This document shows, piece by piece, positions 6,125 to 36,071 of a stretch of 64,000 bases of DNA. The position numbers and the translations under genes were made by a program. The stretch is from Elusimicrobiota bacterium (GTDB lineage: Bacteria; Elusimicrobiota; Elusimicrobia; UBA1565; UBA9628), in NCBI GenBank assembly GCA_016218575.1, contig JACRDN010000016.1:129306-193305 (forward strand), given 5' to 3'. Position 1 is the stretch's first letter; each line of letters begins with the position of its first letter. Below the pieces are notes generated by a model, which was given only the letters and a program-made list of their open reading frames with translations, had not been told where the DNA came from and did no database searches.

Positions 6125-7590
6125 GGCCGGGCGGCGCGCAAGGCCGGGCAGAATAGAGCTCCATGCCCCATGGCTTGGAGGGCTCTCCCGGGCTCGCCCA
6201 ACTCCAGGTAGACACGACTGAGCGCCGACCAGGATGAGGCGCGGTAAGGGTTGAGTTCCGTGGAAACCTCGAGGTGCGCCGCGGCCCGGACCAAATGAGC
6301 CCCGCGGTCGGGACCGGCCTTGGCCAGGCCCATCTCCATCTCCGCGGCGTAACGCTCGGTCTCGGGATGGCGCAAGAGGTGAGACGAGCCCTCCAAAAGA
6401 GACAAGACCTCCCCCGGGGGGGCTCCGCTCTTGGCCTTCTCGACGGCTTGGGCCTTGAGCCTGTCGGCTTGCCACCCTCTCCAGGTCCAGGAGCAAAGCC
6501 CGTAAGCCAGAGTCGCGACCAAAAGGCCCAAGGGGAGCTTGCGCCCGGAGGCGATGTTTACCCCGCGCTTGCTTTCCGATATGGTCGAGGCCGAGAAATA
6601 GCAGAAAAGCCAGAAATTAGCCGGGATGGAGAGGGAATAGTCCCATAGGGATTGGATCAGGATGGCCACGGCCCCGAAGCGCTTATGGGAGCCCCCGCGC
6701 CGCAGACAATGCAGAAGCCCGGCCGTCCAGATCAGCACATAGGGTAGCCCGCTTTCGGCGGCCGTTTCCAAGAAGTGCTGGTGGGCATAAAGCGCGGAGA
6801 GATCCACCCCCGGCCTCTGATAGGCAGGCAGGGCGTAGGCGAAGCTATTCGGACCCAGGCCCAACCAAGGCCGGTCCCAAACCATGCGCAGGGCCGCCTG
6901 CCACCAGTACCAGCGATGCAGGACGTCCGGCGACTTGAGCTTGGCGTATATGATGACCAGACAGACCAGGCCGATGGCCGTGCCCACGCGGTAGGCCGCG
7001 GAGCCGGCCTGGCGCCGGTTGAGCGTCAAGGCCCCGGCCAGGCCCAGCCAAGCTCCGACGCTGCGCGACCAAGCCAAGGCGCACAAAAGCCCGGCGCAGA
7101 GGATCCAGTCCCTCTTTTGAACGCAAAGGGGAAGCAGCATGAGCACCGTTCCCGCGAAAATATTCTGGTTGAGGAAGGCGCTGGAAGGCCTTTCGATCCC
7201 CTGCCGGAAATGCTGGTAGAACGCCAAGAGGACCAGGACCCAGGCGACGGCGCGAACGGCCTCGTCCACGGCCGAGCGCTCGTCCTTGGAGACCGCCATG
7301 ATCGCCGGAAAAATCCACAGTCCCAGGAGGAGGGCCCTCCAGGCCGGGATGGAGTAGCTCGCAACCGGGCTTGAGAACGCCGCCCAGCCGGAGAGTGCGG
7401 CCAAGACTCCGGTCCAGGCCAGGTTCCTGGTGGAGGGAAGGGGAAAGTAGCCCACGAAGAGCCGAAAAAGGACCCATAGGGCGGATCCGCAGACGACCGC
7501 GATAAAAAGGAGGGATTGCGCCCAAAGGTCCCAACTCCCCCGGAGCAGCGGGCCCCCCGCGACCAGGAGCCCGATGAGCAGCGGAAGCAC
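6121..7590 (-). CDS. Wzy_C / O-antigen-ligase-family membrane protein (WaaL/PglL/TfpO-like) with C-terminal soluble helical region
   Basis: 489 aa, about 10 TM segments. Periplasmic loop motif YAHQHFLETAAESGLPYVL matches the H-x-x-[FY]-L-[EQ]-x-x-[AG]-E-x-G signature of O-antigen ligases and O-oligosaccharyltransferases. GTG start at 7590, 10 nt after the pilQ stop. Confidence 0.65.
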   Translation of the reverse strand: MLPLLIGLLVAGGPLLRGSWDLWAQSLLFIAVVCGSALWVLFRLFVGYFPLPSTRNLAWTGVLAALSGWAAFSSPVASYSIPAWRALLLGLWIFPAIMAVSKDERSAVDEAVRAVAWVLVLLAFYQHFRQGIERPSSAFLNQNIFAGTVLMLLPLCVQKRDWILCAGLLCALAWSRSVGAWLGLAGALTLNRRQAGSAAYRVGTAIGLVCLVIIYAKLKSPDVLHRWYWWQAALRMVWDRPWLGLGPNSFAYALPAYQRPGVDLSALYAHQHFLETAAESGLPYVLIWTAGLLHCLRRGGSHKRFGAVAILIQSLWDYSLSIPANFWLFCYFSASTISESKRGVNIASGRKLPLGLLVATLAYGLCSWTWRGWQADRLKAQAVEKAKSGAPPGEVLSLLEGSSHLLRHPETERYAAEMEMGLAKAGPDRGAHLVRAAAHLEVSTELNPYRASSWSALSRVYLELGEPGRALQAMGHGALFCPALRAARP

Positions 7591-12241: not shown

Positions 12242-12407
12242 AAAAAAAGCCGAAAATCCCCTCCGTTTCAGGGGGGTGTACTCGGCGTTTTTGCCGTCGT
12301 GAAAAGCGACGGCAAGTGCATTTATAACAGGTATGGGGAGCTTTGTCAAGACAAAGCAGTTACATAATTATTAAGGAAAGGAGACAAGCCAGGATCAATG
12401 ATTTTTG

Positions 12408-12413
12408 TATAAT
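12408..12413 (+). promoter_or_regulatory. Candidate -10 hexamer TATAAT for the plus-strand inositol cassette (short or leaderless transcript)
   Basis: TATAAT at 12408-12413 lies 6 nt upstream of the ATG at 12420, with no Shine-Dalgarno sequence. The region 12242-12419 is divergent from pilM. Confidence 0.35.
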
Positions 12414-12419
12414 AGAAAA

Positions 12420-13085
12420 ATGCCTTTTATTTTGTTCGATTTCGGGGGAACCTTGGATGGTCCCGGAACTCCCTGGCTTGAGCGTTTCCACGGCATTTAC
12501 CGCGCCGAAGGCCTGGATTTCGCGCGCGAGCGCTTCAGCCAGGCCTTTTACCGGTCGGATGACGAGCTTGCCTCGCGCTTTTCCCTGCGGGGCTTGAGTC
12601 TCGCCGAGACTTTGGAGCTGCAGGTGCAATGCGTTTTGGAAATTTTAGCTCCCGAAAAAATCGGGCTCAAGAGCCGCCTGGCCGGGCTTTTCCTAGAGGA
12701 GTGCCGACGCCATTTTCGCGGAAATCGCCCCATCCTCGAGCGCTTGAGCCGCCGCCACGGCCTCGGCATAGTTTCGAACTTTTACGGCAACCTTCGAAGC
12801 GTCTTAGATAGCGAGGGACTCCTGTCCTTCTTCCAATGCGTGGCCGATTCCGGGGCGCTCGGGATGGAGAAACCCCAGCCCGGCATATTCTTGGAAGCCC
12901 TCAAGGGCTTGAAGGCCGCCCCCGAGGAAACCTTCATGGTCGGCGATTCCGTGGCCCGGGACATGCGCGGCGCGGAAAACCTGGGCCTCAAACACGTGCT
13001 TCTATCCCCTTCCAAAAAAACCCGCTGCTGCCCGCAAGGCCTGCGCATCGAACGACTGGACGAGCTCGAGGCGGTCCTGCCGTGA
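12420..13085 (+). CDS. HAD-superfamily hydrolase (phosphatase)
   Basis: 221 aa from ATG 12420 (the ORF track begins at TTG 12405). Motif I ILFDFGGTLDG is the DxGGT variant of the HAD DxDGT motif. Motif IV reads MVGDSVARDMRGAENLG. Confidence 0.7.
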   Translation: MPFILFDFGGTLDGPGTPWLERFHGIYRAEGLDFARERFSQAFYRSDDELASRFSLRGLSLAETLELQVQCVLEILAPEKIGLKSRLAGLFLEECRRHFRGNRPILERLSRRHGLGIVSNFYGNLRSVLDSEGLLSFFQCVADSGALGMEKPQPGIFLEALKGLKAAPEETFMVGDSVARDMRGAENLGLKHVLLSPSKKTRCCPQGLRIERLDELEAVLP

Positions 13086-13780
13086 TTCGACACGCGGGCG
13101 TCATAGCGGCCGGAGACGGCCTCCGGCTCCAAGGAGCGATCGGGGCAACGGTCAAGCCCATGGCTCCCGTGGCCGGGGTCCCCTTGGTCCATTGGGTGGT
13201 GCGCTCCCTGCGCGGGGCCGGCATCGAGAGCTTCACGGTCATACTCAATTCCCGGGGAAACGCCGCCAGGGAGAGCCTGGTAAGGGAATTCCCTGCCGTG
13301 TCCTGGACCTTCCTGGTCCAGGACACGGCTTCCTCATGGGAAAGCTTCAGGCTGGTGGCCCAAGCCCTCTCCCAAAAAGCCGACATCTTTCTCATGAGCA
13401 CGGTAGACGCCCTGATGCCTCCCCAAGAGGCCGAGCGCTTCGCCCGGGAGGCTGCGACGAGCCCCGCCCCGGCGGGGCTGGCCCTCACCTCCTTCATGGA
13501 CGACGAGAAGCCGCTTTGGGCGGAGCTGGGGGAAAACGGCCTGGTCTCGGCCTTGGGGCCTTCCTGCCGAAGCCGCTCCCGGGCCACGGCGGGGCTCTAT
13601 TTCTTGACAAAGGCCGTCGCCGACGCCATGCCCGCGGCCGAGCGTCATTCCAAGCTGCGGGACTATTGGCAGTCCCTGCTCGATTCGAAGACTCCCGTGG
13701 CCGGAATCGCCCTGGGAAAGACCTTGGACGTGGATAGGCCTCGGGATCTCGCGGCCGCGGAGCGTTTCGCCACATGGTGA
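13082..13780 (+). CDS. Nucleotidyltransferase (MobA/IspD-like NTP-transferase fold)
   Basis: 232 aa. GTG start overlaps the HAD stop (GTGA at 13082-13085). Glycine-rich N-terminus GVIAAGDGLRLQG...KPMAPVAGVPLVHW matches the GxGxR(L) sugar-/alcohol-phosphate nucleotidyltransferase signature. The six-frame ORF is extended upstream to 12836. Confidence 0.6.
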   Translation: MIRHAGVIAAGDGLRLQGAIGATVKPMAPVAGVPLVHWVVRSLRGAGIESFTVILNSRGNAARESLVREFPAVSWTFLVQDTASSWESFRLVAQALSQKADIFLMSTVDALMPPQEAERFAREAATSPAPAGLALTSFMDDEKPLWAELGENGLVSALGPSCRSRSRATAGLYFLTKAVADAMPAAERHSKLRDYWQSLLDSKTPVAGIALGKTLDVDRPRDLAAAERFATW

Positions 13781-14628
13781 GCGCGCTCGGCATTTTCCGC
13801 GAGCTCCATAACTCCCCCAACCGGGAGAACGACGACGCGGCCATCCTCAAGGCCGTCATGGAGCAGTTGGAGCTCCTGAAAGTCCGGGCCATGGTCCTGG
13901 ATCCCGAGGCCGCGGACCAGCAGGATTTGAAGGCCTGGGACATGCTGGTTCCCATGTGCGAGTCCTATGCCAGACTCATGCGCCTCAAGGCCTTGAAGGG
14001 TTCCGGGGCTCCCGTCATCGTCAACTCTCCAGAAGCGGTGCTGGCCTGCTACAGGACCGAGATGCTGGCGGCCTTCGAGCGCTCGCCCGAGCTCGATTTC
14101 CCGGAAACAGAACTGAGAATAGTGACGGGCGATCGCCCGCAGCCTTTCCCGGCTTTCGGCTCGTCCACGGGGGTATGGGCCAAGCGCGGGGACGTGCACA
14201 ACACCCGCGGCGGCCGCGATGTGGTCTTCGCGAAGTCCTCCCAGGAGCTCGAGGCCGTCCGCAAGGATTTCGCCCGACGCGAGATCACTCACATGCTTCT
14301 GCAAAGGCACGTCGACGGAGACCTGATCAAATTCTACGGGGTCGGGCCCGGCCAGTGGTTCACCTGGTTCTATCATGACCCCGCCTCGGCCCGCAGGCTC
14401 TCCTTCGAGGTGGAGGAGCTGGCCCTCCAGGGAGAGCTCGCCGCGCGAGCCGTGGGGCTCGAGGTTTTCGGCGGCGACGCCATCGTGTCGGCCGCTGGAA
14501 CGATTTGCGTCATTGACATCAACTCCTGGCCGAGCTTCGCCCGCGTGCGGGCCGAGGCCGCGGTGCAGATCGCCAGGCACCTGCGCAAGAAGCTCACGAC
14601 CCTGCGGGTCCCGGGAAGACAACCATGA
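13774..14628 (+). CDS. ATP-grasp family ligase
   Basis: 284 aa. ATP-grasp elements present (...VWAKRGDVHNTRGG..., ...IKFYGVGPGQWFTWFYHD..., C-terminal GGDAIVSAAGTICVIDINSWPSF). ATG overlaps the upstream stop (ATGGTGA). Confidence 0.65.
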   Translation: MVSALGIFRELHNSPNRENDDAAILKAVMEQLELLKVRAMVLDPEAADQQDLKAWDMLVPMCESYARLMRLKALKGSGAPVIVNSPEAVLACYRTEMLAAFERSPELDFPETELRIVTGDRPQPFPAFGSSTGVWAKRGDVHNTRGGRDVVFAKSSQELEAVRKDFARREITHMLLQRHVDGDLIKFYGVGPGQWFTWFYHDPASARRLSFEVEELALQGELAARAVGLEVFGGDAIVSAAGTICVIDINSWPSFARVRAEAAVQIARHLRKKLTTLRVPGRQP

Positions 14629-15959
14629 ATATCGCGTCAGAATCCAGCGCCGCCGGTCCCAAATCACAGGCTCTATTCGAGGAGGAGCAGGCCTACATCG
14701 CTCCCGGCCTGCAGTCCGTGGCCCTCTATTCGAGAATCGCCCTGGAGGAGGGGCGGGGCGTCTGGCTCACCGACGCGGACGGACGGCGCTACCTGGACTT
14801 CATGGCCGGAATCGGAGTGGCCTCGGTGGGACATGCCCATCCCGAGCACGCCAAAGCCCTGGCAGAGCAGGCCGCTAGGCTCAGCGTGGGCTCCTTCACC
14901 ACTCGGAGGCGCCTGGCCTTCCTCAAGAACCTAGCCTCGGTGACTCCGGCGGGCCTTTCCAGGGTCCAACTCTACTCCTCCGGGGCCGAGGCGGTGGAAG
15001 CGGCCCTGCGCCTAGCCAAGAGCCACACCAAGAATTTCGAGATGATCAGCTTCTGGGGCGGTTTTCACGGCAAGACCGGCGGGGTTATGGGCCTTTTGGG
15101 GGACGGCTTCAAGCACGCCTTGGGGCCCTTGATGCCCGGCCTCTACCTCTCTCCCTATCCCGACCCACGCCGCTGCCCCTTGGGCGCGCCGGAACCCCAT
15201 GACTGCGCGGCCCACTGCCTCGAGTTCCTGCGCGAGATGATCCAGCGCGAGACCTCCCGCTCCATAGCGGCCATTATCCTCGAGCCCATCCAGGGCACGG
15301 CCGGCAACGTGGTTCCTCCTCCGGGATTTTTCAAGGGAGTGCGGGACATCGCGCGCGAGAACGGAGCCCTATTCATCTCTGACGAGATGATCACCGGGTT
15401 CGGCCGCACCGGGAAATGGTTCGGCTGCGAGCACGAGGAGGTCGTCCCCGACATCATGACCGTGGGCAAGGGCATGGCGGGAGGCTTCCCCCTATCGGGA
15501 ATCGTCACGAGCGACTCCATCGCCCAGGCCAAGCCCTTCGCCAACCCGAGCGGCTCCTCATCGAGCTACGGCGGCAACCCCTTGGCCGCGGCCGCGGCCG
15601 ACGCCACCCTCTCAATCATGAAAAGGGAGAACCTGCCGGCCAACGCGCAAAGAGTCGGCGCGGCTCTGTTGGCGCGCCTGGGGGAGCTGCGGAGCCGTTC
15701 GCCCCTCGTGGGCCGGGTGCGCGGGCGGGGGCTCATGATAGGCGTGGATCTGGTCCATCCCAAGACCGGAAAGCCTCTTCCCGGGCCTCTCTGCCGGGAG
15801 CTTTTCAGCGACTGCCTGGACCGTGGCCTTCTCAGCATGTGCTACAGCCCGGCTCTGCGCATCAACCCGCCCCTCACCATCACCGAGGCGGAGGCCCTTC
15901 AGGGAGCCGACATCCTGGAGGACTCCCTAGGCGTCCTGGCGCGAAGGCACGGCATTTAA
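14625..15959 (+). CDS. Class III pyridoxal-phosphate aminotransferase
   Basis: 444 aa. Class-III PLP aminotransferase blocks present, including the PLP-lysine region DEMITGFGRTGKWFGCEHEEVVPDIMTVGKGMAGG. ATGA overlap with the upstream gene. Confidence 0.8.
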   Translation: MNIASESSAAGPKSQALFEEEQAYIAPGLQSVALYSRIALEEGRGVWLTDADGRRYLDFMAGIGVASVGHAHPEHAKALAEQAARLSVGSFTTRRRLAFLKNLASVTPAGLSRVQLYSSGAEAVEAALRLAKSHTKNFEMISFWGGFHGKTGGVMGLLGDGFKHALGPLMPGLYLSPYPDPRRCPLGAPEPHDCAAHCLEFLREMIQRETSRSIAAIILEPIQGTAGNVVPPPGFFKGVRDIARENGALFISDEMITGFGRTGKWFGCEHEEVVPDIMTVGKGMAGGFPLSGIVTSDSIAQAKPFANPSGSSSSYGGNPLAAAAADATLSIMKRENLPANAQRVGAALLARLGELRSRSPLVGRVRGRGLMIGVDLVHPKTGKPLPGPLCRELFSDCLDRGLLSMCYSPALRINPPLTITEAEALQGADILEDSLGVLARRHGI

Positions 15960-16975
15960 TGAAGAACCGCCTCAAGGGAGCCTTGGCCGGCTTCGGGCAA
16001 GTGGCCCAAAGGGCCCATGCCCCGGCCTTCGCCTCGTCCGAGCATTTCTCCATCGTCGCCGTGGCGGAGGAGAATCCCGCGCGTCTGGAGGCGGCCAAGG
16101 CCTTCTTCCCGCGAGTCCGGCTCTATTCCAGCCTGGAGGTTCTCTTGCGCTCGGAAAGCGAGCTGGATTTCATCTCCATCGCCACCCCCCCCTTCCTGCA
16201 CGCGCCCCAAACCCTGGCGGCCTTGGAGCGGGGCTGTCATGTGCTCTGCGAGAAGCCATTGGCCTTGAGCCGAGAGGAATTGGACGCCATGGAGGAACTC
16301 GCCCGAGCCCGCGGCCGCGTCGTCTTCACCGTCCACAATTGGGCCCATGCCGCCCAGTGGAAGAAAGCCTTGGATTTGATCCAGGCCGGAACCTTGGGCG
16401 AAATACGCCACGCAGAGCTGCACGTCCTGCGCCAGAAGCCGGCCTCGAGCGCGCTGGCGGATTGGAGGCGCGACAGGAGCCTCGCCGGCGGCGGGATACT
16501 CCTCGACCACGGCTGGCACAATCTTTACCTGATCTACCGCCTGCTAGGCTGCCCAGAGGCGCGGCCCAAGGTCAGCGCCAGGTTCTGGCGGGAAAGCCCC
16601 TCCCATGTCGAGGACGAAGCGACCGTGCTCCTGGATTTTCTCGCCTCCTCCGCCCTTCTGCACCTAAGCTGGAGGTCCTTTGCCCGGACCAACTGGGCCG
16701 TGGTTTACGGGACCCGAGGCAGGCTTGAACTCGCGGACAACGAGCTCCGGCTTGAGCTGTCCTCCGGCCATTGCGAAACCTTCCAGTTCCAGGAAAAGCT
16801 CTCCCAGCTTTCGGCCCACCCGAGTTGGATGGCCTCTCTCATCGAGGAATTCCACTCCGAGCTCCTGCAGCCGGGGCCCCGACGCAATCTGGCGGAAGCC
16901 CGTTTTTGCCTGTCCGCCATAGAGGAAGCCTACCGCCAAAGCCCTGAGCCCTGCCCGGCCGGAGCGCCCGCGTGA
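15959..16975 (+). CDS. Gfo/Idh/MocA-family NAD(P)-dependent oxidoreductase (inositol/sugar dehydrogenase-like)
   Basis: 338 aa from ATG 15959, which overlaps the aminotransferase stop (TAATG). The six-frame ORF's 181-codon upstream extension is discounted. N-terminal Rossmann fold (LAGFGQVAQRAHAPAF) and the family motif EKPLALSREELDAM. Confidence 0.7.
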   Translation: MKNRLKGALAGFGQVAQRAHAPAFASSEHFSIVAVAEENPARLEAAKAFFPRVRLYSSLEVLLRSESELDFISIATPPFLHAPQTLAALERGCHVLCEKPLALSREELDAMEELARARGRVVFTVHNWAHAAQWKKALDLIQAGTLGEIRHAELHVLRQKPASSALADWRRDRSLAGGGILLDHGWHNLYLIYRLLGCPEARPKVSARFWRESPSHVEDEATVLLDFLASSALLHLSWRSFARTNWAVVYGTRGRLELADNELRLELSSGHCETFQFQEKLSQLSAHPSWMASLIEEFHSELLQPGPRRNLAEARFCLSAIEEAYRQSPEPCPAGAPA

Positions 16976-18147
16976 GCCAAGCTTCCCGGGTCGTCCTGGT
17001 CGTGGCCCATCCCCGGCTCGCTTTCGAGCGTTTGGGAGGGCTCACCATCTTGGAAAGGCAGCTTTTCACCTTGGCGCGCGCCGGGGCCGGAAAGGTTTGG
17101 ATCGCCATGCCCAAGCCAGACGCCGCGGCGCTTTGCGCCCTGCGCCTGCCTCCGGGGCTCGATCTCTCATGGTCCCACCGCTCCGGCCTGGTCCCGGGAG
17201 AGTGCGAGCCGCCGTATCTCACTTTGTCGGGCGACCACCTCCTGCGCCTGGAGGCATTGCGCGGCATCCTCTCGGCCGAATACGCGGCCCATTCCCGAAT
17301 GGTCGACGCCGAGGGCCGGACCGTGGTCCAGGCCGTGCCGTTCCGGTCCGAGACCATTCCTCCCGCCCATGAGGAAAGGCTCTCACAGGGAGCCTTCCTC
17401 CATCTGCGCATCCCAGCCGGGCAGGGGTCGAGCCTCGATTGGCTCATGGCCTCTGGAGGCAAGAGTCAGGACGGCTTCATGGCCCGGAACTTCGACCGGC
17501 ACATATCGCTCGCCTTGTCGCGATTTCTGCTGGACACCCGGGTGACCCCCAACATGATGACGTTGTTTAGCTGCGCCTTGGGGCTCTTCGGCACTGTCTT
17601 CTTCCTAAACCCCAATCATCACGCCATGAGCTTGGCCGGGGCCTGCTTGATATGGCTTCACTCGGTTCTGGACGGCTGCGACGGGGAATTGGCGCGGCTG
17701 AAATTCCTGGAAAGCCCTCTCGGAGCCGACATCGACTTTTGGGGCGACAACCTGGTGCACCTGTCGCTTTTCGGCTGCCTGGCCTGGGGCTTCCACAAAG
17801 CCGACCACAGTCTCCTGCCGCTGATACTGGGAACCTCGGCCTGCCTGGGTGCCCTGGGCTCGGCCCGGCTGGCATACGTTGATAGACGCTCTAAACGGCA
17901 AGCCCCCGCCTTGTCGAGCCCGGTGGGCGGCTCGGCGACGGCCTTGCAGCGCCTCGAGACCATTTTAGCTCAAAGAGACTTCATCTACCTTCTGCTGCTT
18001 CTGGCCTACTTCGACAAGACCTACGAGGTCCTCTGGGCCGGAGCCGTGGGCTCCGTCCTTTTTCTCATCATGATGATGAAACTCAGGAGATCACCGCATG
18101 AACACCCGCAAACACGCCTCGAAATCCCCTCCAAAATCCACAGTTGA
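16972..18147 (+). CDS. Bifunctional nucleotidyltransferase / CDP-alcohol phosphatidyltransferase (IPCT/DIPPS-like)
   Basis: 391 aa. N-terminal ~150 aa cytosolic NTP-transferase-like domain (VVLVVAHP...GGLTILERQLFTLARAGAGKVWI). C-terminal membrane domain carries the CDP-alcohol phosphotransferase motif DGCDGELARLKFLESPLGADIDFWGDNLVH (D-G-x2-A-R-x8-G-x3-D-x3-D). GTG start overlaps the upstream stop (GTGA). Confidence 0.7.
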   Translation: MSQASRVVLVVAHPRLAFERLGGLTILERQLFTLARAGAGKVWIAMPKPDAAALCALRLPPGLDLSWSHRSGLVPGECEPPYLTLSGDHLLRLEALRGILSAEYAAHSRMVDAEGRTVVQAVPFRSETIPPAHEERLSQGAFLHLRIPAGQGSSLDWLMASGGKSQDGFMARNFDRHISLALSRFLLDTRVTPNMMTLFSCALGLFGTVFFLNPNHHAMSLAGACLIWLHSVLDGCDGELARLKFLESPLGADIDFWGDNLVHLSLFGCLAWGFHKADHSLLPLILGTSACLGALGSARLAYVDRRSKRQAPALSSPVGGSATALQRLETILAQRDFIYLLLLLAYFDKTYEVLWAGAVGSVLFLIMMMKLRRSPHEHPQTRLEIPSKIHS

Positions 18148-19528
18148 GCCGGCTTCCGGCCGCTTGGGAGTGCTCCTCCCGGGCATGGGAGCGGTCACCA
18201 GCACCTTCATCGCGGGCGTCGAGCTCTTCAAGAAGGGCTTGGGAGAGCCCGTGGGGTCGCTCACGCAGCTGCAGACCATTCGCCTGGGCAAGCGCTATGA
18301 GAACCGCAGCCCCCTGATCAAGGATTTCGTGCCCTTGGCGGATTTGAGAGACCTCGTGTTCGGAGGCTGGGACCTCTACCCAGACAACATGCACGAGGCC
18401 GCGGTCAAGGCGGAGGTCTTGAGCCCCGCCCAGATCGCCCCGGTGCGCCGGGAGCTCGCGGCCATACGCCCCATGCCCGCGGTGTTCGATCCCGCCTACG
18501 TCAAGAACCTCAAAACGGGCTTCGCCAAAAAGGGGAACAGCAAATGGGACCTGGCCCGGCAAATCGTCGCCGACATCCAGGCCTTCAAGAAAAAGAACAA
18601 GCTCGAGCGCCTGGTCATGCTGTGGTGCGGCTCGACGGAAATCCTTCCCGAGCCGAGCCACGTCCACGAGACCTTGGCGGCCTTCGAGGAAGGCCTGCGC
18701 AGGAGCGCCCCGGAGATTCCCCCCTCCATGATCTACGCCTACGCGGCGGTGAGCCTCGGCATCCCCTACGGCAACGGCGCGCCCAACCTGTCCGCGGACG
18801 TCCCGGCCCTGGTCGAGCTCGCCGAGAAAACCGGCGCGCCCATCGCCGGCAAGGACTTCAAGACCGGGCAAACCTTGATGAAGACCACGATCGCCCCCAT
18901 GCTCAAGGCCCGGATGCTCGCCCTGCGCGGCTGGTACTCGACCAACATACTCGGCAACCGCGACGGCGAGGTCCTCGACGACCCCGGCTCATTCAAGACC
19001 AAGGAGAAGAGCAAGATGTCGGTGCTCGACTCCATCCTGGACCCGGGGCTCTACCCCCGGCTCTACGGGCAATACTTCCACAAGGTGCGCATAGACTACT
19101 ACCCCCCACGCGGGGATGCCAAGGAGGGCTGGGACAACATAGACATCTCGGGCTGGATGGGCATGCCCATGCAGATCAAGATCAACTTCCTCTGCCGCGA
19201 CTCGATCTTGGCCGCCCCGATCGTCCTGGATCTGGTGCTGTTCCTCGATCTGGCCAAGCGCGCGGGGCTCAAGGGCATCCAGGAGTGGCTCTCGTTCTAC
19301 TTCAAGTCCCCGCAATGCCGCGAGGACTTGAAGCCCGAACACGATATTTTCATACAGCACCTCAAGCTCAAGAACACCTTGCGCCTGCTCATGGGCGAAG
19401 AGGTCCTCGACCACTCGGGGCTAGACTACTACGACGCCAAGAAGGGGACCCCGGTCGCGGCCCCGGCGCCAAAACCGGTCAAGGAAAAGAAGTCAAAGAC
19501 CCTGGCCGCTAGCGCGCGCCGGGCTTGA
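18098..19528 (+). CDS. ino1: myo-Inositol-1-phosphate synthase (bacterial/archaeal MIPS type)
   Basis: 476 aa. NAD-binding N-terminus LGVLLPGMGAVTSTFIAGVE and conserved MIPS blocks (...LWCGSTE..., ...NGAPNLSAD..., ...DFKTGQTLMKTTIAPMLKARML...). GGAGA sits 8 nt before the ATG. It overlaps the preceding gene by 50 nt. Confidence 0.75.
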   Translation: MNTRKHASKSPPKSTVEPASGRLGVLLPGMGAVTSTFIAGVELFKKGLGEPVGSLTQLQTIRLGKRYENRSPLIKDFVPLADLRDLVFGGWDLYPDNMHEAAVKAEVLSPAQIAPVRRELAAIRPMPAVFDPAYVKNLKTGFAKKGNSKWDLARQIVADIQAFKKKNKLERLVMLWCGSTEILPEPSHVHETLAAFEEGLRRSAPEIPPSMIYAYAAVSLGIPYGNGAPNLSADVPALVELAEKTGAPIAGKDFKTGQTLMKTTIAPMLKARMLALRGWYSTNILGNRDGEVLDDPGSFKTKEKSKMSVLDSILDPGLYPRLYGQYFHKVRIDYYPPRGDAKEGWDNIDISGWMGMPMQIKINFLCRDSILAAPIVLDLVLFLDLAKRAGLKGIQEWLSFYFKSPQCREDLKPEHDIFIQHLKLKNTLRLLMGEEVLDHSGLDYYDAKKGTPVAAPAPKPVKEKKSKTLAASARRA

Positions 19529-20621
19529 CCACGGTCCAGCGGAACTCCTTGACGCCATAATTGCCGGCGAGGTCTCCCGCGCTCAGGAGCAGGCGGTGCT
19601 CCCCAGGCGCCCGGGGGAATTGATACGGCCCCTGCCATTGAGTTCCCTCGAAGCTGAACCCCAGGTTGATCGAGAACCGTCTTTCCTCATAGTCCCCCCG
19701 GGACTGGCTGGGCCAGAAAAGGTCGCGCACGTAGACTTCCTCAGAATTACCCGGCAAGAGGTCGAATTTCCAGACCTGGCGCCATGATCCGTCATCCACC
19801 TTGAAGTGAAGAGAGTAAGGCGGTTCGTAGAATTTCCTGTGGTGGATGAGGTCTCGAACCTCAGCCACGATATGGTAATCCGCGGACACCTCGGCGGATT
19901 CGAGCCTTCGGCCATCCTGGACCAAGGCGATATCCACGATCTCCGGCGCCGAGACATCGAAGACGGGCTTCAGGAAAATGAGCGGGTTGAGAAGAAGACC
20001 GTTTTTATCCAAAATCGTCAAATGGATATGGTTGTATTTCTGATTGAACACTTCAAACTTGGAAGATGACAGCCACTCAACAACCGCACCTAAAATCGCC
20101 CCCTCTGGAATGGCCTTGTTTTCGCCAAAGGCCCGATAAATCTCATTAGGAATCGAATCGCCTTGGAGATGCCAATATCTCCACGTATAGCCCGCCTCGT
20201 CCTTGACCGCGACCCCGCAATATTTTCCGCAATCCCCTCCGCTCATCTCAACCACTTTCCCTCCCGCCGAGGCTCTGACCACGGCGCCGGCTTCGGCGCG
20301 AATGTCTATGCCCCTGTGAAAGTACGGACCTTTGCTATCATCATATTCTGGATAGTTTTGATAGGAGCCGAAAATATGCCCCAAGGTCTTCATTTCGACA
20401 GGCCATTCATACTGTTGCCTGGGCGCCGGATAAAGCAACGCTGGAATACGCTCCGGCGGGGTCAATTCCTTGTGGGCAACAGCCTGGGGACCGCTTTCCT
20501 CTTTGAGCCCCTGGAGAATAGCTCTTGCGCTGAAGCCTTTGTCGAAATCCACGGCCCCTGCCCCGGACGATGCCCGGGCACAGAGGCTAAGAACCAGCGC
20601 AACTAGGCCGTATGCCCTCAT
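19509..20621 (-). CDS. Secreted M23-family (LytM-like) metallopeptidase
   Basis: 370 aa from internal start MRAYGLVALVLSLCARASSGAG (signal peptide). M23 motifs HRGIDI and HIHL. The six-frame ORF extends to 20903. Convergent 20-nt overlap with the MIPS gene. Confidence 0.7.
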   Translation of the reverse strand: MRAYGLVALVLSLCARASSGAGAVDFDKGFSARAILQGLKEESGPQAVAHKELTPPERIPALLYPAPRQQYEWPVEMKTLGHIFGSYQNYPEYDDSKGPYFHRGIDIRAEAGAVVRASAGGKVVEMSGGDCGKYCGVAVKDEAGYTWRYWHLQGDSIPNEIYRAFGENKAIPEGAILGAVVEWLSSSKFEVFNQKYNHIHLTILDKNGLLLNPLIFLKPVFDVSAPEIVDIALVQDGRRLESAEVSADYHIVAEVRDLIHHRKFYEPPYSLHFKVDDGSWRQVWKFDLLPGNSEEVYVRDLFWPSQSRGDYEERRFSINLGFSFEGTQWQGPYQFPRAPGEHRLLLSAGDLAGNYGVKEFRWTVVKPGAR

Positions 20622-20707
20622 GGCTTTAGTGTAGCGGGGGGGCCCGGGGTTGAAAGGGCCGTTATACCCAGATCCAGCTGGGTCCAAAGACCCAAAATGA
20701 GAAAAAG

Positions 20708-20743
20708 TTATCCCCAAGACTTCGCGGCGAAGTTTTGGGGATA
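20708..20743. repeat. 36-bp near-perfect palindromic element, copy A
   Basis: TTATCCCCAAGACTTCGCGGCGAAGTTTTGGGGATA. Its two arms pair over 14 bp when G-U pairs are allowed. It ends 2 nt before the first candidate bamA start. A second copy lies at 34128-34163. Confidence 0.6.
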
Positions 20744-20745
20744 CC

Positions 20746-35848: not shown

Positions 35849-36043
35849 TTACCGGACCGGGCGAACCGCGCGACCAGACCGGATGCAATCGGTGCAGACG
35901 TAGCCGGTTTGGGTCTTGCCTTCCAGAACGAACTTCTGCCTCTGCAGGTTGGGCCTGAAGGTGCGCTTGGAGGCCTTGTGGGAGTGACTGTAGCTAAATC
36001 CCCCCACGGGCCCCTTGGCGCAGATAGAGCACTTAAATGCCAT
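35849..36043 (-). CDS. rpmB: 50S ribosomal protein L28 (Zn-ribbon form)
   Basis: 64 aa, MAFKCSICAKGPVGGFSYSHSHKASKRTFRPNLQRQKFVLEGKTQTGYVCTDCIRSG. Matches the bL28 signature (C-x2-C-GK, SHS, TKR-x-F-x-PNLQ) with a second CxxC pair. Embedded in a longer spurious ORF (to 36277). Confidence 0.8.
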   Translation of the reverse strand: MAFKCSICAKGPVGGFSYSHSHKASKRTFRPNLQRQKFVLEGKTQTGYVCTDCIRSGRAVRPVR

Positions 36044-36071
36044 AAATGCTATTTTAACAAATAGACGGGCC

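What the first reader, a model, noticed from the sequence alone, without database searches (positions are those of the whole stretch)
16972..18147. Fused nucleotidyltransferase + CDP-alcohol phosphatidyltransferase gene next to MIPS (IPCT/DIPPS-like architecture)
The N-terminal half (about 150 aa) is soluble with a GGLTILERQLF...AGAGKVWI NTase-like core. The C-terminal half is membrane-embedded with the full motif DGCDGELARLKFLESPLGADIDFWGD.

This two-domain layout is known from di-myo-inositol-phosphate synthesis in hyperthermophiles, and from a proposed CDP-inositol route to inositol lipids in some bacteria. Finding it in a high-GC lineage that builds type IV pili, with an extra stand-alone NTase (13082-13780) in the same operon, is unusual.
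Basis: partly seen in the sequence, partly recalled or inferred. Interest (0 to 1): 0.6.

Follow-up and report, generated by a model that had tools for sequence, protein, structure and literature searches.

The report
Conserved seven-gene inositol phosphotransferase operon
The gene encodes a membrane phosphotransferase whose attached "nucleotidyltransferase" half is a degenerate, probably inactive copy, and it sits in a seven-gene operon, conserved in several little-studied bacterial phyla, that probably builds an undescribed modified (likely aminated) inositol-phosphate lipid head group or solute.

Summary
ORF 16972-18147 (391 aa) has a soluble N-terminal domain of about 160 aa and a six-helix CDP-alcohol phosphotransferase domain with the full motif DGCDGELARLKFLESPLGADIDFWGD. 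It overlaps a myo-inositol-1-phosphate synthase gene.

The N-domain has a nucleotidyltransferase-like fold. The G-x-G-x-R signature is absent from all 195 homologues checked, the Lys and Asp positions vary, and the domain is one third shorter than a real enzyme. The closest solved structure is AF2299 of Archaeoglobus fulgidus, which also has a truncated cytidylyltransferase-like domain and no established function. It is not the bifunctional IPCT/DIPPS.

The active cytidylyltransferase is almost certainly the stand-alone gene at 13082-13780. It keeps every signature residue, and its best full-length match among solved proteins is to inositol-1-phosphate cytidylyltransferases.

The gene is the sixth of a seven-gene operon kept in the same order in Elusimicrobiota, Verrucomicrobiota, NC10 and Acidobacteriota:
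- HAD-like hydrolase
- cytidylyltransferase
- unannotated ATP-grasp protein
- class-III aminotransferase
- Gfo/Idh/MocA dehydrogenase
- phosphotransferase
- inositol-phosphate synthase

Recurrent gene fusions tie these together. I read it as a Kennedy-type CDP-cyclitol pathway that delivers a modified, probably aminated, inositol phosphate to a lipid or to a soluble acceptor. I found no paper describing it. It is a new variant of a known kind.

The parts
12343..12371 (+). Sigma-70-like promoter match in the short divergent gap between pilM (ends at 12349, minus strand) and the first operon gene.
   Evidence: TTGTCA-17-AATTAT, 9 of 12 matches. This is a consensus match only, so the evidence is weak.
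12405..13085 (+). Gene 1: HAD-superfamily hydrolase, 226 aa. The true start is possibly the ATG at 12420. The Asp+2 acid/base residue is replaced by Gly.
   Evidence: Pfam HAD_2 and Hydrolase match at E = 1e-14. The best NCBIfam match is REG-2-like HAD-IA, below its cut-off. Motif I is FD(F/Y)GGTLD, with Gly at Asp+2 in 57/57 homologues. The nucleophile D12, S124, K156, D181 and D186 are conserved. The gene is fused to the NTase in six loci.
13082..13780 (+). Gene 2: stand-alone sugar/cyclitol-phosphate cytidylyltransferase-like NTase, 232 aa. This is the probable catalytic maker of the CDP-alcohol.
   Evidence: Pfam NTP_transf_3 and NTP_transferase match above their cut-offs. A9, A10, G11, G13, R15, K25, D109, D141-E-K-P-L145, D216, D218 and D222 are invariant, and P26 and W146 nearly invariant, in 23 orthologues. 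The best full-length PDB matches are T. maritima IPCT 4jd0 (E = 6e-11), A. fulgidus IPCT 2xme (1.3e-8) and IPCT-DIPPS 4mnd (4.4e-8). The GTG start overlaps the HAD stop codon (GTGA).
13774..14628 (+). Gene 3: ATP-grasp protein of an unannotated family, 284 aa. I propose it is a cyclitol or cyclitol-phosphate kinase. A carboxylate-amine ligase is the alternative.
   Evidence: No Pfam or NCBIfam model matches above its cut-off, and sources name the homologues 'hypothetical'. The model has pLDDT 88.7 and an ATP-grasp fold; Foldseek top hits mix ArgX/LysX/RimK/Ddl ligases with PPIP5K2 and ITPK1 kinases. The profile's best PDB sequence hits are ITPK4 and ITPK1 (E = 0.012-0.12). In the Pfam vote, Ins134_P3_kin matches 10/27 members, best E = 2.5e-4. 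D235, D248 and N250 are invariant. The family has 308 representatives at E <= 1e-30, including fusions to NTase, HAD and the phosphotransferase.
14625..15959 (+). Gene 4: class-III PLP aminotransferase, 444 aa.
   Evidence: Pfam Aminotran_3 matches at E = 1.7e-106. The nearest solved proteins are GABA aminotransferases at E = 2e-74. Orthologues in the other loci are 54-73% identical.
15956..16975 (+). Gene 5: Gfo/Idh/MocA NAD(P)-dependent sugar/cyclitol dehydrogenase, 339 aa.
   Evidence: Pfam GFO_IDH_MocA matches at E = 1.4e-24 together with the C-terminal domains. NCBIfam hits include inositol 2-dehydrogenase (2e-15) and UDP-GlcNAc 3-dehydrogenase (4e-15), all below their cut-offs. PDB neighbours are sugar and cyclitol secondary-alcohol oxidoreductases, including scyllo-inositol dehydrogenase. 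The EKP motif and a D-x3-H motif are visible in the translation.
16972..17451 (+). Gene 6, N-terminal domain (residues 1-160): cytoplasmic NTase-fold domain without the NTase signature. It is a probable pseudo-enzyme, serving as a dock or regulator.
   Evidence: After the phosphotransferases, the Foldseek list runs into sugar-1-phosphate NTases (RmlA, GMPPA/B, MurU, GalU, IspD, T. maritima IPCT) at E = 1e-3 to 2e-2. hhalign against the stand-alone NTase gives E = 8e-4 with the signature loop missing. G.G.R is present in 0/195 homologues. Mean identity to the window protein is 42%, against 60% for the membrane domain. The domain is undetectable by tblastn in the distant clade, although the protein length is kept.
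17452..18147 (+). Gene 6, juxtamembrane helix plus six-TM CDP-alcohol phosphotransferase domain. The catalytic motif lies at nt 17671-17748 (residues 234-259).
   Evidence: The juxtamembrane motif DGFMARNFDRHIS is shared with AF2299 (DGWIAREINRKVS) and DIPPS (DGFISRKINRKIS).
18098..19528 (+). Gene 7: myo-inositol-1-phosphate synthase, 476 aa. It overlaps gene 6 by 50 nt.
   Evidence: Pfam NAD_binding_5 matches at E = 1e-96 and Inos-1-P_synth at 6e-34. Orthologues are 59-83% identical. The gene forms a single ORF with the phosphotransferase in L054 and L066.

Best explanation
**Shown.** ORF 16972-18147 encodes an AF2299-type CDP-alcohol phosphotransferase. It has a complete six-helix catalytic domain and a cytoplasmic NTase-fold domain that has lost the NTase signature. 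It is the sixth gene of a translationally coupled seven-gene operon conserved in the same order across at least four phyla. The stand-alone NTase of the operon keeps all catalytic residues and resembles inositol-1-phosphate cytidylyltransferases.

**Inferred.** The operon is a Kennedy-type CDP-cyclitol pathway, with these steps:
1. MIPS makes inositol phosphate from glucose-6-phosphate.
2. The Gfo/Idh/MocA dehydrogenase and the class-III aminotransferase convert one hydroxyl to an amine through a ketone, giving an inosamine-type cyclitol. This happens on the free cyclitol, on its phosphate or on its CDP ester.
3. The ATP-grasp protein, read as an ITPK-like kinase, and the HAD enzyme set the position of the phosphate.
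4. The stand-alone NTase activates the cyclitol phosphate with CTP.
5. The membrane enzyme transfers the phospho-cyclitol from CMP to an alcohol acceptor.

**Role of the N-domain (inferred).** I take the degenerate N-domain to be a non-catalytic platform that caps the active site, as in AF2299. It may also dock the soluble NTase so that the CDP-alcohol is handed over at the membrane.

**Acceptor (inferred).** My preferred acceptor is a membrane lipid (diacyl- or dialkyl-glycerol, or ceramide), which would give an amino-inositol phospholipid head group. I put this at about 50%. A soluble acceptor such as inositol-1-phosphate, giving a zwitterionic analogue of di-myo-inositol phosphate, is next at about 30%.
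For: **Architecture.**
- Foldseek superposes the whole model on AF2299 (387 columns, TM-score 0.77 on the target, E = 3e-15), ahead of IPCT-DIPPS 4mnd (E = 9e-12).
- The family profile matches AF2299 at E = 5.6e-32.

**N-domain degenerate.**

**Catalytic NTase elsewhere in the operon.**

**Operon.**
- In the window, consecutive genes overlap by 4-50 nt.
- The order HAD-NT-ATPgrasp-AT-DH-CAPT-MIPS is found in essentially every locus with enough flank among 80 GTDB species. These include Elusimicrobiota, Verrucomicrobiae / Terrimicrobiaceae and Thermoanaerobaculia. It is also found in a Candidatus Methylomirabilis MAG and a farmland contig.

**Gene fusions that tie the enzymes into one pathway.**
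- HAD-NT in six loci and CAPT-MIPS in two.
- NT-ATPgrasp in at least five confirmed family representatives, with two more suggested by their length and match position.
- HAD-NT-ATPgrasp, ATPgrasp-(N-domain)-CAPT and ATPgrasp-HAD, one representative each.
- A kinase fused to an NTase is the usual layout of activation pathways such as HldE, LicA/LicC and AmgK/MurU (own knowledge).

**Kinase reading of the ATP-grasp protein.**
- Its best sequence hits in the PDB are ITPK4 and ITPK1.
- The best single Pfam E-value is for Ins134_P3_kin.
- PPIP5K2 and ITPK1 are among the top Foldseek hits.
- The metal ligands read D...D-x-N as in inositol-phosphate kinases, where ligases have E-x-N (own knowledge).

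**Donor side resembles soluble-donor enzymes.** Similarity to AF2299 and DIPPS is concentrated in the juxtamembrane helix to TM3. TM4-6 alone finds nothing in the PDB.

**Lipid acceptor.**
- In Rhodothermus marinus a MIPS-IPCT-BEPIS cluster transfers inositol phosphate from CDP-inositol to dialkylether glycerol (Jorge et al. 2015, as summarised in PMC4587543, and cited in PMC9246714).
- The Bacteroides vulgatus-type cluster (NTP transferase, CDP-alcohol transferase, HAD, MIPS) occurs in species that make inositol sphingolipids (PMC9246714).
- LPG_synthase_TM (flippase-like) genes abut the operon in NC10 and Verrucomicrobia.
- MlaC and MMPL genes lie next to it in NC10.
- GT4 glycosyltransferases precede it in five loci.
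- In Elusimicrobiota it sits next to bamA-ompH-lpxDC-fabZ-lpxAIB.
Against: - There is no biochemical evidence for any step.
- The ATP-grasp subfamily assignment is inconclusive. Ligases score as well as kinases by fold, and YheCD and RimK get as many Pfam votes as ITPK.
- The HAD enzyme lacks the Asp+2 acid/base of canonical phosphatases in 57/57 sequences, so its role as a phosphatase is uncertain.
- Known aminocyclitol aminotransferases are of the DegT/StsC type, not class III (own knowledge). The nearest relatives of this one are GABA aminotransferases.
- The solved relatives closest to the transferase (AF2299, DIPPS) do not process lipids (PMC4634129), and the enzyme has only six TM helices.
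- The lipid-related neighbours are found in only some lineages, and none is adjacent to the operon in this window.
- CAPT-MIPS fusions would fit inositol-1-phosphate as a direct substrate.
- Sequences of BEPIS and of the B. vulgatus transferase could not be obtained, so relatedness to the lipid-forming enzymes is untested.
Confidence: 0.55

Rival explanations
1. The enzymology is the same, but the product is soluble. The transferase couples a CDP-(amino)cyclitol to inositol-1-phosphate, as DIPPS does. The HAD enzyme removes the terminal phosphate. The result is a di-inositol-phosphate-like compatible solute (an 'amino-DIP', net neutral) in mesophilic bacteria.
For: - The best-scoring characterised family is the DIPPS half of IPCT/DIPPS.
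- The closest structures, AF2299 and DIPPS, handle soluble substrates (PMC4634129).
- All characterised members of this clade (DIPPS, PIP synthase, archaetidylinositol-phosphate synthase) take inositol-1-phosphate as acceptor (own knowledge).
- The MIPS gene overlaps the transferase gene and is fused to it in L054 and L066.
- A HAD enzyme fits the need for a final dephosphorylation.
Against: - DIP is known from (hyper)thermophiles. In Rhodothermus marinus the MIPS-IPCT-transferase cluster makes lipids.
- The HAD enzyme lacks Asp+2.
- TM4-6, the acceptor side, shows no detectable similarity to DIPPS or AF2299.
- Flippase-like, Mla/MMPL and GT4 neighbours occur in several lineages.
Confidence: 0.3
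2. One reading: a genuine bifunctional IPCT/DIPPS that both makes CDP-inositol and forms di-myo-inositol phosphate phosphate. On this view the stand-alone NTase is an unrelated extra.
For: - The protein has a two-domain layout with an NTase-fold N-domain.
- The DIPPS-half HMM is the best NCBIfam hit.
- MIPS is adjacent.
Against: - The score of 72.8 bits is far below the 580-bit equivalog cut-off and covers only the C-terminal half.
- The G-x-G-x-R signature is absent in 195/195 homologues, while it is present in 59/59 stand-alone NTases.
- The positions aligned to the catalytic Lys and Asp vary.
- The domain is about 70 residues shorter than IPCT.
- Three further enzymes are strictly co-conserved with the gene.
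Confidence: 0.04
3. A PIP-synthase-like enzyme. CDP-diacylglycerol is the donor and (amino)inositol phosphate is the acceptor, followed by dephosphorylation by the HAD enzyme, as in the mycobacterial and Bacteroides thetaiotaomicron route.
For: - PIP synthase and archaetidylinositol-phosphate synthase HMMs are hit (43.7 and 40.2 bits).
- PIP synthase structures are found by Foldseek.
- A phosphatase-like gene is present.
Against: - The scores are far below the cut-offs of 170 and 180 bits.
- This route leaves the strictly conserved, IPCT-like NTase and its fusions to the ATP-grasp and HAD proteins without a role.
- The juxtamembrane motif is that of AF2299 and DIPPS, which bind small hydrophilic CDP-alcohols (PMC4634129).
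Confidence: 0.08
4. A phosphatidylglycerophosphate or cardiolipin synthase of general phospholipid metabolism that happens to lie near MIPS.
For: JGI pipelines name many homologues 'phosphatidylglycerophosphate synthase'.
Against: - No PgsA or Cls model is hit at E <= 0.01.
- PgsA (7drj) appears only at rank 32 in Foldseek, with E = 1e-2.
- The gene keeps its place in the seven-gene operon across phyla.
Confidence: 0.02

Closest known systems
AF2299 of Archaeoglobus fulgidus (PDB 4O6M, 4O6N, 4Q7C), a CDP-alcohol phosphotransferase with an N-terminal cytidylyltransferase-like domain
   Same: - The whole-length architecture and fold match: a truncated NTase-like cytoplasmic domain, a juxtamembrane helix and six TM helices (Foldseek: 387 aligned columns, TM-score 0.77).
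- It is the strongest sequence match among solved proteins (E = 1.6e-23 for the single sequence, 5.6e-32 for the profile).
- The juxtamembrane motif DG(F/W)xAR..(D/N)R..S is shared, and the catalytic motif is the same.
   Different: - Overall identity is only 23-24%.
- The N-domains are not significantly similar in sequence (1.7 bits).
- AF2299 is archaeal and hyperthermophilic, and its physiological reaction is unsettled. PMC4634129 gives CDP-glycerol as donor and says it does not process lipids. PMC8633023 says it is 'probably involved in PI-phosphate synthesis'.
- Its gene neighbourhood was not examined here.
Bifunctional IPCT/DIPPS (AF0263, PDB 4MND; NCBIfam NF041135), which makes di-myo-inositol phosphate in hyperthermophiles
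   Same: - The domain order is the same: an NTase-fold domain followed by a six-TM CDP-alcohol phosphotransferase.
- The gene is linked to MIPS.
- The donor is expected to be a soluble CDP-cyclitol.
- It is the best-scoring characterised family for the membrane half.
   Different: - Here the N-domain has lost the catalytic signature and about 70 residues.
- Cytidylyltransferase activity is supplied by a separate gene.
- An aminotransferase, a dehydrogenase, an ATP-grasp protein and a HAD enzyme are added.
- The hosts are mesophilic, uncultured lineages.
Rhodothermus marinus MIPS-IPCT-BEPIS cluster: CDP-inositol:dialkylether-glycerol inositol-phosphotransferase (Jorge, Borges and Santos 2015)
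   Same: - It is a bacterial operon-like cluster of MIPS, a stand-alone IPCT and a CDP-alcohol-family transferase.
- The polar head group, not the lipid, is activated with CTP (as described in PMC4587543).
- This is the only experimentally shown bacterial use of such a gene trio.
   Different: - The cluster has three genes, not seven, and no amination or ATP-grasp module.
- Whether BEPIS has the N-terminal domain, and how closely it is related, could not be tested. The sequence and the paper were not available.
Bacteroides vulgatus-type putative alternative inositol-lipid cluster (Heaver et al. 2022, PMC9246714)
   Same: - The four-gene core is the same: NTP transferase, CDP-alcohol phosphatidyltransferase, HAD hydrolase and MIPS.
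- Fusions occur among these genes (transferase-HAD in Prevotella veroralis).
- An LPG-synthase/flippase-like gene lies in the vicinity.
   Different: - That cluster is itself unconfirmed.
- It lacks the dehydrogenase, the aminotransferase and the ATP-grasp genes.
- Its predicted product is ordinary phosphoinositol lipid.
- Orthology of the individual proteins was not tested here.
Kennedy pathway and nucleotide-heptose pathway, as analogies of logic rather than homologues
   Same: - The kinase, cytidylyltransferase and CDP-alcohol phosphotransferase sequence is that of the CDP-choline and CDP-ethanolamine routes.
- The kinase, HAD phosphatase and NTase sequence, with fused genes, is that of HldE/GmhB and HddA/GmhB/HddC (own knowledge).
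- HddC is among the PDB hits of the NTase, and GmhB is among the weak NCBIfam hits of the HAD enzyme.
   Different: - The kinase here would have an ATP-grasp fold, not a choline-kinase, GHMP or ribokinase fold.
- The alcohol is a cyclitol made de novo by MIPS.

Membership tests
CDP-alcohol phosphotransferase family (Pfam PF01066) | The signature D-x2-D-G-x2-A-R-x8-G-x3-D-x3-D | tested here: met
   Residues 234-259 read DGCDGELARLKFLESPLGADIDFWGD. All eight signature residues are invariant in 41 homologues. The motif is intact in 194/195 homologues.
CDP-alcohol phosphotransferase family (Pfam PF01066) | A score above the curated threshold, and a polytopic membrane domain of six or more helices | tested here: met
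   The score is 39.4 bits against a cut-off of 22. The model shows a juxtamembrane helix plus six long helices between residues 169 and 373.
Bifunctional IPCT/DIPPS (NCBIfam NF041135) | An N-terminal catalytic cytidylyltransferase domain with the G-x-G-x-R...K signature | tested here: not met
   No NTase HMM matches residues 1-160. G.G.R is present in 0/195 homologues. The signature loop is deleted in the hhalign alignment, and the Lys- and Asp-equivalent positions vary.
Bifunctional IPCT/DIPPS (NCBIfam NF041135) | A score at or above the equivalog cut-off over the full length | tested here: not met
   The score is 72.8 bits against a cut-off of 580. Only HMM positions 224-414 of 419 are matched.
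Bifunctional IPCT/DIPPS (NCBIfam NF041135) | Synthesis of di-myo-inositol phosphate phosphate from CDP-inositol and inositol-1-phosphate | not testable with these tools
   This needs an enzyme assay.
AF2299-type phosphotransferase (truncated cytidylyltransferase-like domain plus six-TM domain) | Whole-length structural correspondence, including the cytoplasmic domain | tested here: met
   In Foldseek, 4o6n, 4o6m and 4q7c rank first, with 385-396 aligned columns of a 391-aa query and TM-scores of 0.66 (query) and 0.77 (target).
AF2299-type phosphotransferase (truncated cytidylyltransferase-like domain plus six-TM domain) | Sequence homology of the membrane domain and the juxtamembrane motif | tested here: met
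   E = 1.6e-23 for the single sequence and 5.6e-32 for the profile. DGFMARNFDRHIS aligns with DGWIAREINRKVS.
AF2299-type phosphotransferase (truncated cytidylyltransferase-like domain plus six-TM domain) | Sequence homology of the N-terminal domain | tested here: inconclusive
   Only a 1.5-1.7 bit stretch is found (LGGLTILER...RAG against LLGLTLRER...RAG). The correspondence is seen at fold level only.
Phosphatidylinositol-phosphate synthase (NCBIfam NF045883) | A score at or above the equivalog cut-off | tested here: not met
   The score is 43.7 bits against a cut-off of 170.
Phosphatidylinositol-phosphate synthase (NCBIfam NF045883) | The conserved Arg pair that binds the phosphate of inositol phosphate (R153 and R191 in the R. 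salmoninarum enzyme; PMC4634129) | tested here: inconclusive
   TM4-6 could not be aligned reliably with any solved enzyme. The family has a nearly invariant R327 and an invariant R335, but their equivalence is unknown.
PGP synthase / cardiolipin synthase | A match to PgsA or Cls family models | tested here: not met
   NCBIfam gives no hit at E <= 0.01. The PgsA structure 7drj appears only at Foldseek rank 32 with E = 1e-2.
CDP-inositol-dependent inositol-lipid clusters (R. marinus MIPS-IPCT-BEPIS; B. vulgatus-type cluster) | Co-located genes for MIPS, a stand-alone IPCT-like NTase and a CDP-alcohol transferase (plus HAD in Bacteroides) | tested here: met
   All four genes are present in one operon and are conserved across phyla. 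The NTase is most like IPCTs.
CDP-inositol-dependent inositol-lipid clusters (R. marinus MIPS-IPCT-BEPIS; B. vulgatus-type cluster) | Orthology of the transferase to BEPIS or BVU_RS13105, and a lipid acceptor | not tested
   The reference sequences were not obtainable with these tools. The acceptor needs an assay.
ATP-grasp superfamily (gene 13774-14628) | An ATP-grasp fold with the conserved Lys and acidic/Asn metal ligands | tested here: met
   Foldseek gives E of about 1e-13 to many ATP-grasp enzymes. K137, K186, D235, D248 and N250 are invariant.
Inositol-phosphate kinases of the ATP-grasp type (ITPK1, PPIP5K; Pfam PF05770) | A score above the Pfam cut-off, and kinase rather than ligase chemistry | tested here: inconclusive
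   The window protein scores 13 bits against a cut-off of 23. The family model matches 10/27 members, best E = 2.5e-4. The profile's top PDB hits are ITPK4 and ITPK1 at E = 0.012-0.12. Ligases fit equally well by fold.

The most novel reading that the evidence does not exclude
The operon encodes an undescribed pathway that makes a CDP-activated aminocyclitol (inosamine phosphate) and attaches it as a phosphodiester. The product would be either a new class of zwitterionic amino-inositol phospholipid or a neutral DIP-like solute in mesophiles. The pathway would use a new family of ATP-grasp cyclitol kinases and a pseudo-nucleotidyltransferase domain that recruits the real cytidylyltransferase to the membrane enzyme. 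It would also give the first physiological context for AF2299-type enzymes, whose structure has been known since 2014.
Probability: 0.35. Interest if true: 0.8.

Novelty: new variant of a known kind. Interest (0 to 1): 0.6.

Why it matters
Inositol phosphodiesters in prokaryotes are known in three forms:
- phosphatidylinositol made through a PIP intermediate
- di-myo-inositol phosphate in hyperthermophiles
- one CDP-inositol-dependent ether lipid in Rhodothermus

This operon adds an oxidation/transamination module and an unannotated ATP-grasp family to the CDP-inositol core. It is kept intact in Elusimicrobiota, Terrimicrobiaceae (Verrucomicrobiota), NC10/Methylomirabilis and Thermoanaerobaculia. 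These groups are abundant in soil and groundwater, and almost nothing is known about their membranes and solutes.

If the prediction holds, three things follow.
- It defines a new polar head group or osmolyte that lipidomics and metabolomics can look for. The head-group fragment would be inosamine phosphate at about 259 Da, against 260 Da for inositol phosphate (own calculation).
- It gives a function to a protein family of at least 300 sequence clusters that has no Pfam model.
- It explains why AF2299-type enzymes carry a dead nucleotidyltransferase domain.

The pathway is directly testable because it is a compact seven-gene cassette.

Tried and rejected
**Readings rejected.**
- Chance ORF. 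Rejected: there are thousands of homologues and a confident model.
- Active fused NTase. Rejected: the signature is absent in 195/195 homologues.
- PgsA or cardiolipin synthase. Rejected: no model is hit.
- The three extra genes are mere neighbours. Rejected: the order is conserved across phyla and the genes are fused in many genomes.

**Attempts that led nowhere.**
- The model coordinates are not exposed, so I could not inspect the donor and acceptor pockets for a lipid groove.
- Residues 272-391 (TM4-6) searched alone against the PDB found nothing. Acceptor-binding residues could not be mapped onto PIP synthase or DIPPS.
I repeated it with database homologues.
- The AF2299 structure paper (Sciara et al. 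2014) is not held. The archaeal lipid review PMC9385802 does not mention AF2299.
- Literature searches for the gene combination, for inosamine with CDP-alcohol or headgroup, and for Elusimicrobia with myo-inositol found nothing relevant.
- Sequences of BEPIS and of the B. vulgatus cluster could not be fetched, so no phylogeny including the lipid-forming enzymes was made.
- The window's own LPG_synthase_TM gene (1357-2607) was not detected as a homologue of those adjoining the operon in NC10 and Verrucomicrobia (no tblastn hit at E <= 1e-6). I do not count it as evidence.

Full report
**The observation**

The ORF listing gives a 391-aa ORF at 16972-18147 on the plus strand with a GTG start. The start overlaps the stop codon of the upstream gene in a GTGA junction.

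The CDP-alcohol phosphotransferase signature is complete at residues 234-259: DGCDGELARLKFLESPLGADIDFWGD. Pfam CDP-OH_P_transf is matched above its cut-off, at 39.4 against 22 bits. A database search returns 2140 homologues, the closest non-identical ones at 53-58% identity, and those that carry a name are from Elusimicrobia MAGs. All eight signature residues are invariant in an alignment of 41 of them. The motif is intact in 194 of 195 homologues examined.

An AlphaFold model built on that alignment is confident (pLDDT 87.8, pTM 0.82). It shows an alpha/beta domain at residues 1-160, a juxtamembrane helix and six long helices. The next gene (18098-19528) is a myo-inositol-1-phosphate synthase (Pfam E = 1e-96) and overlaps by 50 nt. 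A stand-alone nucleotidyltransferase lies at 13082-13780.

**What the N-terminal half is**

No Pfam or NCBIfam nucleotidyltransferase model matches residues 1-160.

Foldseek first lists the CDP-alcohol phosphotransferases. The list then runs into sugar-1-phosphate nucleotidyltransferases: RmlA, GMPPA/B, MurU, GalU, IspD and the Thermotoga inositol-1-phosphate cytidylyltransferase, at E = 1e-3 to 2e-2. These can only be matching the N-domain.

The catalytic apparatus is gone.
- The pattern G.G.R occurs in the first 45 residues of none of 75 locus homologues and none of 120 database homologues. It occurs in 59 of 59 copies of the stand-alone NTase.
- A profile-profile comparison of the N-domain with the stand-alone NTase gives a weak but colinear alignment: E = 8e-4, N-domain 14-101 on NTase 24-122. 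This leaves no room for the signature loop.
- The residues that fall on the NTase Lys25 and Asp109 (R15 and D88 of the window protein) vary among close homologues.
- The domain is about 160 aa, against about 232 aa for the stand-alone enzyme.
- It evolves faster than the membrane domain. Mean identity to the window protein is 42% against 60%. In the distant clade tblastn cannot detect it, although the protein length is kept.

**Closest solved relative**

The best PDB match is not IPCT/DIPPS but AF2299 of Archaeoglobus fulgidus.
- Sequence: E = 1.6e-23 for the single sequence and 5.6e-32 for the family profile.
- Structure: 385-396 aligned columns and TM-score 0.77, covering both domains.

The literature describes AF2299 as carrying an N-terminal 'cytidylyltransferase-like domain'. 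It has been used as a crystallisation chaperone. PMC4634129 says the protein does not process lipids and gives CDP-glycerol as its donor. Another paper says only that it is 'probably involved' in PI-phosphate synthesis (PMC8633023). Its physiological role is therefore open.

The juxtamembrane motif DGFMARNFDRHIS is shared with AF2299 and with DIPPS. Among curated families the ranking is the DIPPS half (72.8 bits), PIP synthase (43.7) and archaetidylinositol-phosphate synthase (40.2). All are far below their cut-offs. No PgsA or cardiolipin-synthase model is hit.

**The real cytidylyltransferase**

The stand-alone gene at 13082-13780 keeps A9, A10, G11, G13, R15, K25, D109, the DEKPL block (141-145) and the D216, D218 and D222 of the DVDRPED block. 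All are invariant across 23 orthologues from several phyla.

With the family profile, the best full-length matches among solved proteins are:
- the Thermotoga maritima inositol-1-phosphate cytidylyltransferase (4jd0, E = 6e-11)
- the A. fulgidus IPCT (2xme, E = 1.3e-8)
- IPCT-DIPPS (4mnd, E = 4.4e-8)

HddC and LicC follow alongside. The operon thus carries a split IPCT plus a DIPPS-like pair, with a fossil NTase domain still attached to the membrane enzyme.

**The unit is a seven-gene operon**

| Gene | Coordinates | Product |
|---|---|---|
| 1 | 12405-13085 | HAD-like hydrolase |
| 2 | 13082-13780 | NTase |
| 3 | 13774-14628 | ATP-grasp protein |
| 4 | 14625-15959 | class-III aminotransferase |
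| 5 | 15956-16975 | Gfo/Idh/MocA dehydrogenase |
| 6 | 16972-18147 | phosphotransferase |
| 7 | 18098-19528 | MIPS |

Every junction in the window overlaps by 4-50 nt.

A scan of one genome per GTDB species returned 80 loci. A tblastn survey shows the same seven genes in the same order in essentially every locus with enough flank. Most are Elusimicrobiota. Four are Verrucomicrobiae MAGs, one is a Thermoanaerobaculia MAG, and one contig is binned as Nitrosotalea. The operon also occurs in a Candidatus Methylomirabilis (NC10) MAG and in a farmland contig. Names attached to homologues of the ATP-grasp gene include Terrimicrobiaceae and NC10.

**Gene fusions**

Several pairs of genes read as a single ORF:
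- HAD and NTase in six loci
- phosphotransferase and MIPS in two loci

Among 50%-identity representatives of the ATP-grasp family there are further fusions:
- NTase-ATPgrasp: five confirmed by Pfam, two more suggested by their length and match position
- one HAD-NTase-ATPgrasp triple fusion
- one ATPgrasp-(N-domain)-phosphotransferase fusion
- one ATPgrasp-HAD fusion

These fusions argue that all the enzymes act on one small-molecule pathway.

**The accessory enzymes**

- **ATP-grasp protein.** It has no Pfam or NCBIfam assignment and is called 'hypothetical' by the sources. The family has 308 representatives at E <= 1e-30 and 777 at E <= 1e-10. Its model (pLDDT 88.7) is a clear ATP-grasp fold. 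The top structural neighbours mix ligases (ArgX/LysX, RimK, Ddl, DcsG) with inositol-phosphate kinases (PPIP5K2 at rank 3, ITPK1 at ranks 5, 10 and 11).
  - By sequence, the family profile's best PDB hits are ITPK4 and ITPK1, at E = 0.012-0.12.
  - In a member-by-member Pfam scan, Ins134_P3_kin has the best single E-value (2.5e-4) and matches 10 of 27 members. YheCD matches 11 and RimK matches 9.
  - The invariant metal ligands read D235...D248-x-N250. From my own knowledge, inositol-phosphate kinases have D-x-N where ligases have E-x-N.
  - I therefore lean to a kinase, at roughly 60:40, but the test is inconclusive.
- **Dehydrogenase.** It resembles sugar and cyclitol secondary-alcohol oxidoreductases, including inositol dehydrogenases and UDP-GlcNAc 3-dehydrogenase.
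- **Aminotransferase.** It is GABA-aminotransferase-like.
- **HAD enzyme.** It keeps the nucleophile and motifs II-IV. It has Gly in place of the Asp+2 acid/base in 57 of 57 sequences, so it is not a textbook phosphatase.

**How it most likely works**

*Shown:* the architecture, the loss of the NTase signature, the intact IPCT-like NTase, the operon and the fusions.

*Inferred:* a Kennedy-type route.
1. MIPS supplies inositol phosphate.
2. The dehydrogenase and the aminotransferase replace one hydroxyl by an amine. The precedent is scyllo-inosose to scyllo-inosamine in streptomycin synthesis. At the nucleotide-sugar level it is WbpB/WbpE-type 3-amination. Both are from my own knowledge.
3. The ATP-grasp kinase and the HAD enzyme reposition the phosphate. 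The nucleotide-heptose pathway uses the same kinase, HAD phosphatase and NTase logic.
4. The NTase makes the CDP-cyclitol.
5. The membrane enzyme transfers the phospho-cyclitol to an alcohol.

The N-domain would be a cap over the active site and a possible dock for the NTase. Inactive NTase-fold partners of active ones are known, for example GMPPA with GMPPB, which is among the Foldseek hits.

**The acceptor**

This is the weakest point.

Similarity to AF2299 and DIPPS is confined to the juxtamembrane helix through TM3, the CDP and donor side. TM4-6 alone finds nothing in the PDB. Homology therefore supports a soluble CDP-alcohol donor and says nothing about the acceptor.

In favour of a lipid:
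- The only experimentally established bacterial MIPS-IPCT-transferase cluster, in Rhodothermus marinus, makes an inositol ether phospholipid from CDP-inositol (Jorge et al. 2015, as described in PMC4587543).
- The NTP-transferase, CDP-alcohol-transferase, HAD and MIPS cluster of Bacteroides vulgatus and Prevotella occurs in species that make inositol sphingolipids (PMC9246714).
- Flippase-like LPG_synthase_TM genes adjoin the operon in NC10 and Verrucomicrobia.
- MlaC and MMPL genes lie next to it in NC10.
- GT4 glycosyltransferases precede it in five loci.
- A PGAP1-like alpha/beta hydrolase follows it in Verrucomicrobia, although that match is weak.
- In Elusimicrobiota the operon is always next to bamA-ompH-lpx.

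In favour of a soluble DIP-like product:
- The nearest solved enzymes do not process lipids.
- All characterised members of the clade use inositol-1-phosphate as acceptor (own knowledge).
- MIPS is fused to the transferase in two genomes.

I put the lipid reading at about 50%, the soluble reading at about 30%, and other outcomes at the rest.

**Comparison with what is known, and novelty**

The gene is a member of the CDP-alcohol phosphotransferase family and matches AF2299 in architecture. It fails the defining tests for IPCT/DIPPS, PIP synthase and PgsA/Cls. The CDP-inositol core of the operon is a known kind (R. marinus; proposed in Bacteroides).

These parts are not described in any paper I could find:
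- the amination module
- the unannotated ATP-grasp family
- the degenerate NTase domain paired with a separate active NTase
- conservation of the cassette across four phyla

The searchable library lacks most subscription journals, so absence of a report is not proof. I rate it a new variant of a known kind, with interest 0.6. The gene alone is fairly ordinary. The operon around it is a compact, testable lead to an unknown head group or solute in poorly known phyla, and to the function of AF2299-type enzymes.

Noticed in passing
L020, L030, L039, L043, L057, L059 (HAD-NTase); L054, L066 (phosphotransferase-MIPS); P0362, P0367, P0375, P0383, P0433, P0447, P0454, P0490: Operon genes are repeatedly fused into single ORFs: HAD-NTase, NTase-ATPgrasp, HAD-NTase-ATPgrasp, ATPgrasp-phosphotransferase, ATPgrasp-HAD and phosphotransferase-MIPS. 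Some could be MAG frameshift artefacts, but the recurrence across lineages argues that most are real.
   Followed up: partly
window 12405-13085 and 56 homologues in the fetched loci: The operon's HAD enzyme has motif I FD(F/Y)GGTLD, with Gly instead of the Asp+2 general acid/base, in 57/57 sequences. The nucleophile Asp and motifs II-IV are kept. It may not be a simple phosphatase.
   Followed up: partly
L083 6417-7436; L073 10410-11357 (minus strand); L084 6425-7633; L075 1947-3053; L082 1693-2808; L071 68-646; L077 10290-12071; L080 10151-11905: Some lineages carry accessory genes next to the operon. There is an LPG_synthase_TM (flippase-like) gene in NC10 and Verrucomicrobia, a GT4 glycosyltransferase directly upstream in five loci, and an alpha/beta hydrolase with a weak PGAP1-like match downstream in Verrucomicrobia. 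None of these adjoins the operon in this window.
   Followed up: partly
window 27975-29009 (+): A second Gfo/Idh/MocA gene sits inside the lipid A cluster, between lpxI and lpxB. It matches UDP-GlcNAc 3-dehydrogenase (E = 4e-71, below the cut-off), and a Gfo/Idh/MocA gene sits at the same position (between lpxI and lpxB) in L002. It looks like a GnnA-type enzyme, which would suggest a 2,3-diamino (GlcN3N) lipid A in this lineage.
   Followed up: partly
window 338-7590 (minus strand): Upstream of pilQ lies a run of envelope genes. These are a SAM methyltransferase (338-1360), an LPG_synthase_TM / flippase-like protein (1357-2607), two large ORFs of 616 and 771 aa with no Pfam or NCBIfam hit (2334-4184 and 4181-6496), and a Wzy_C O-antigen-ligase-like protein (6121-7590).
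   Followed up: partly
L078 (contig DATIWG010000096.1, labelled Nitrosotalea sp.): Six of the seven operon genes are present on a contig binned as a thaumarchaeon, and no MIPS was detected within the flank. This is either a misbinned bacterial contig or a transfer into archaea. I did not check which.
   Followed up: no
window 19509-20903 (minus strand): A 464-aa protein with a weak M23 peptidase domain and a long N-terminal region lies between MIPS and bamA. Different genes occupy this slot in L001 and L002, so it is a variable spot in an otherwise syntenic region.
   Followed up: no
window 34199-35848 (minus strand): A 549-aa ORF has no Pfam or NCBIfam match. It lies between a RelA/SpoT-type gene (32623-34065) and recG (36015-38165).
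   Followed up: no
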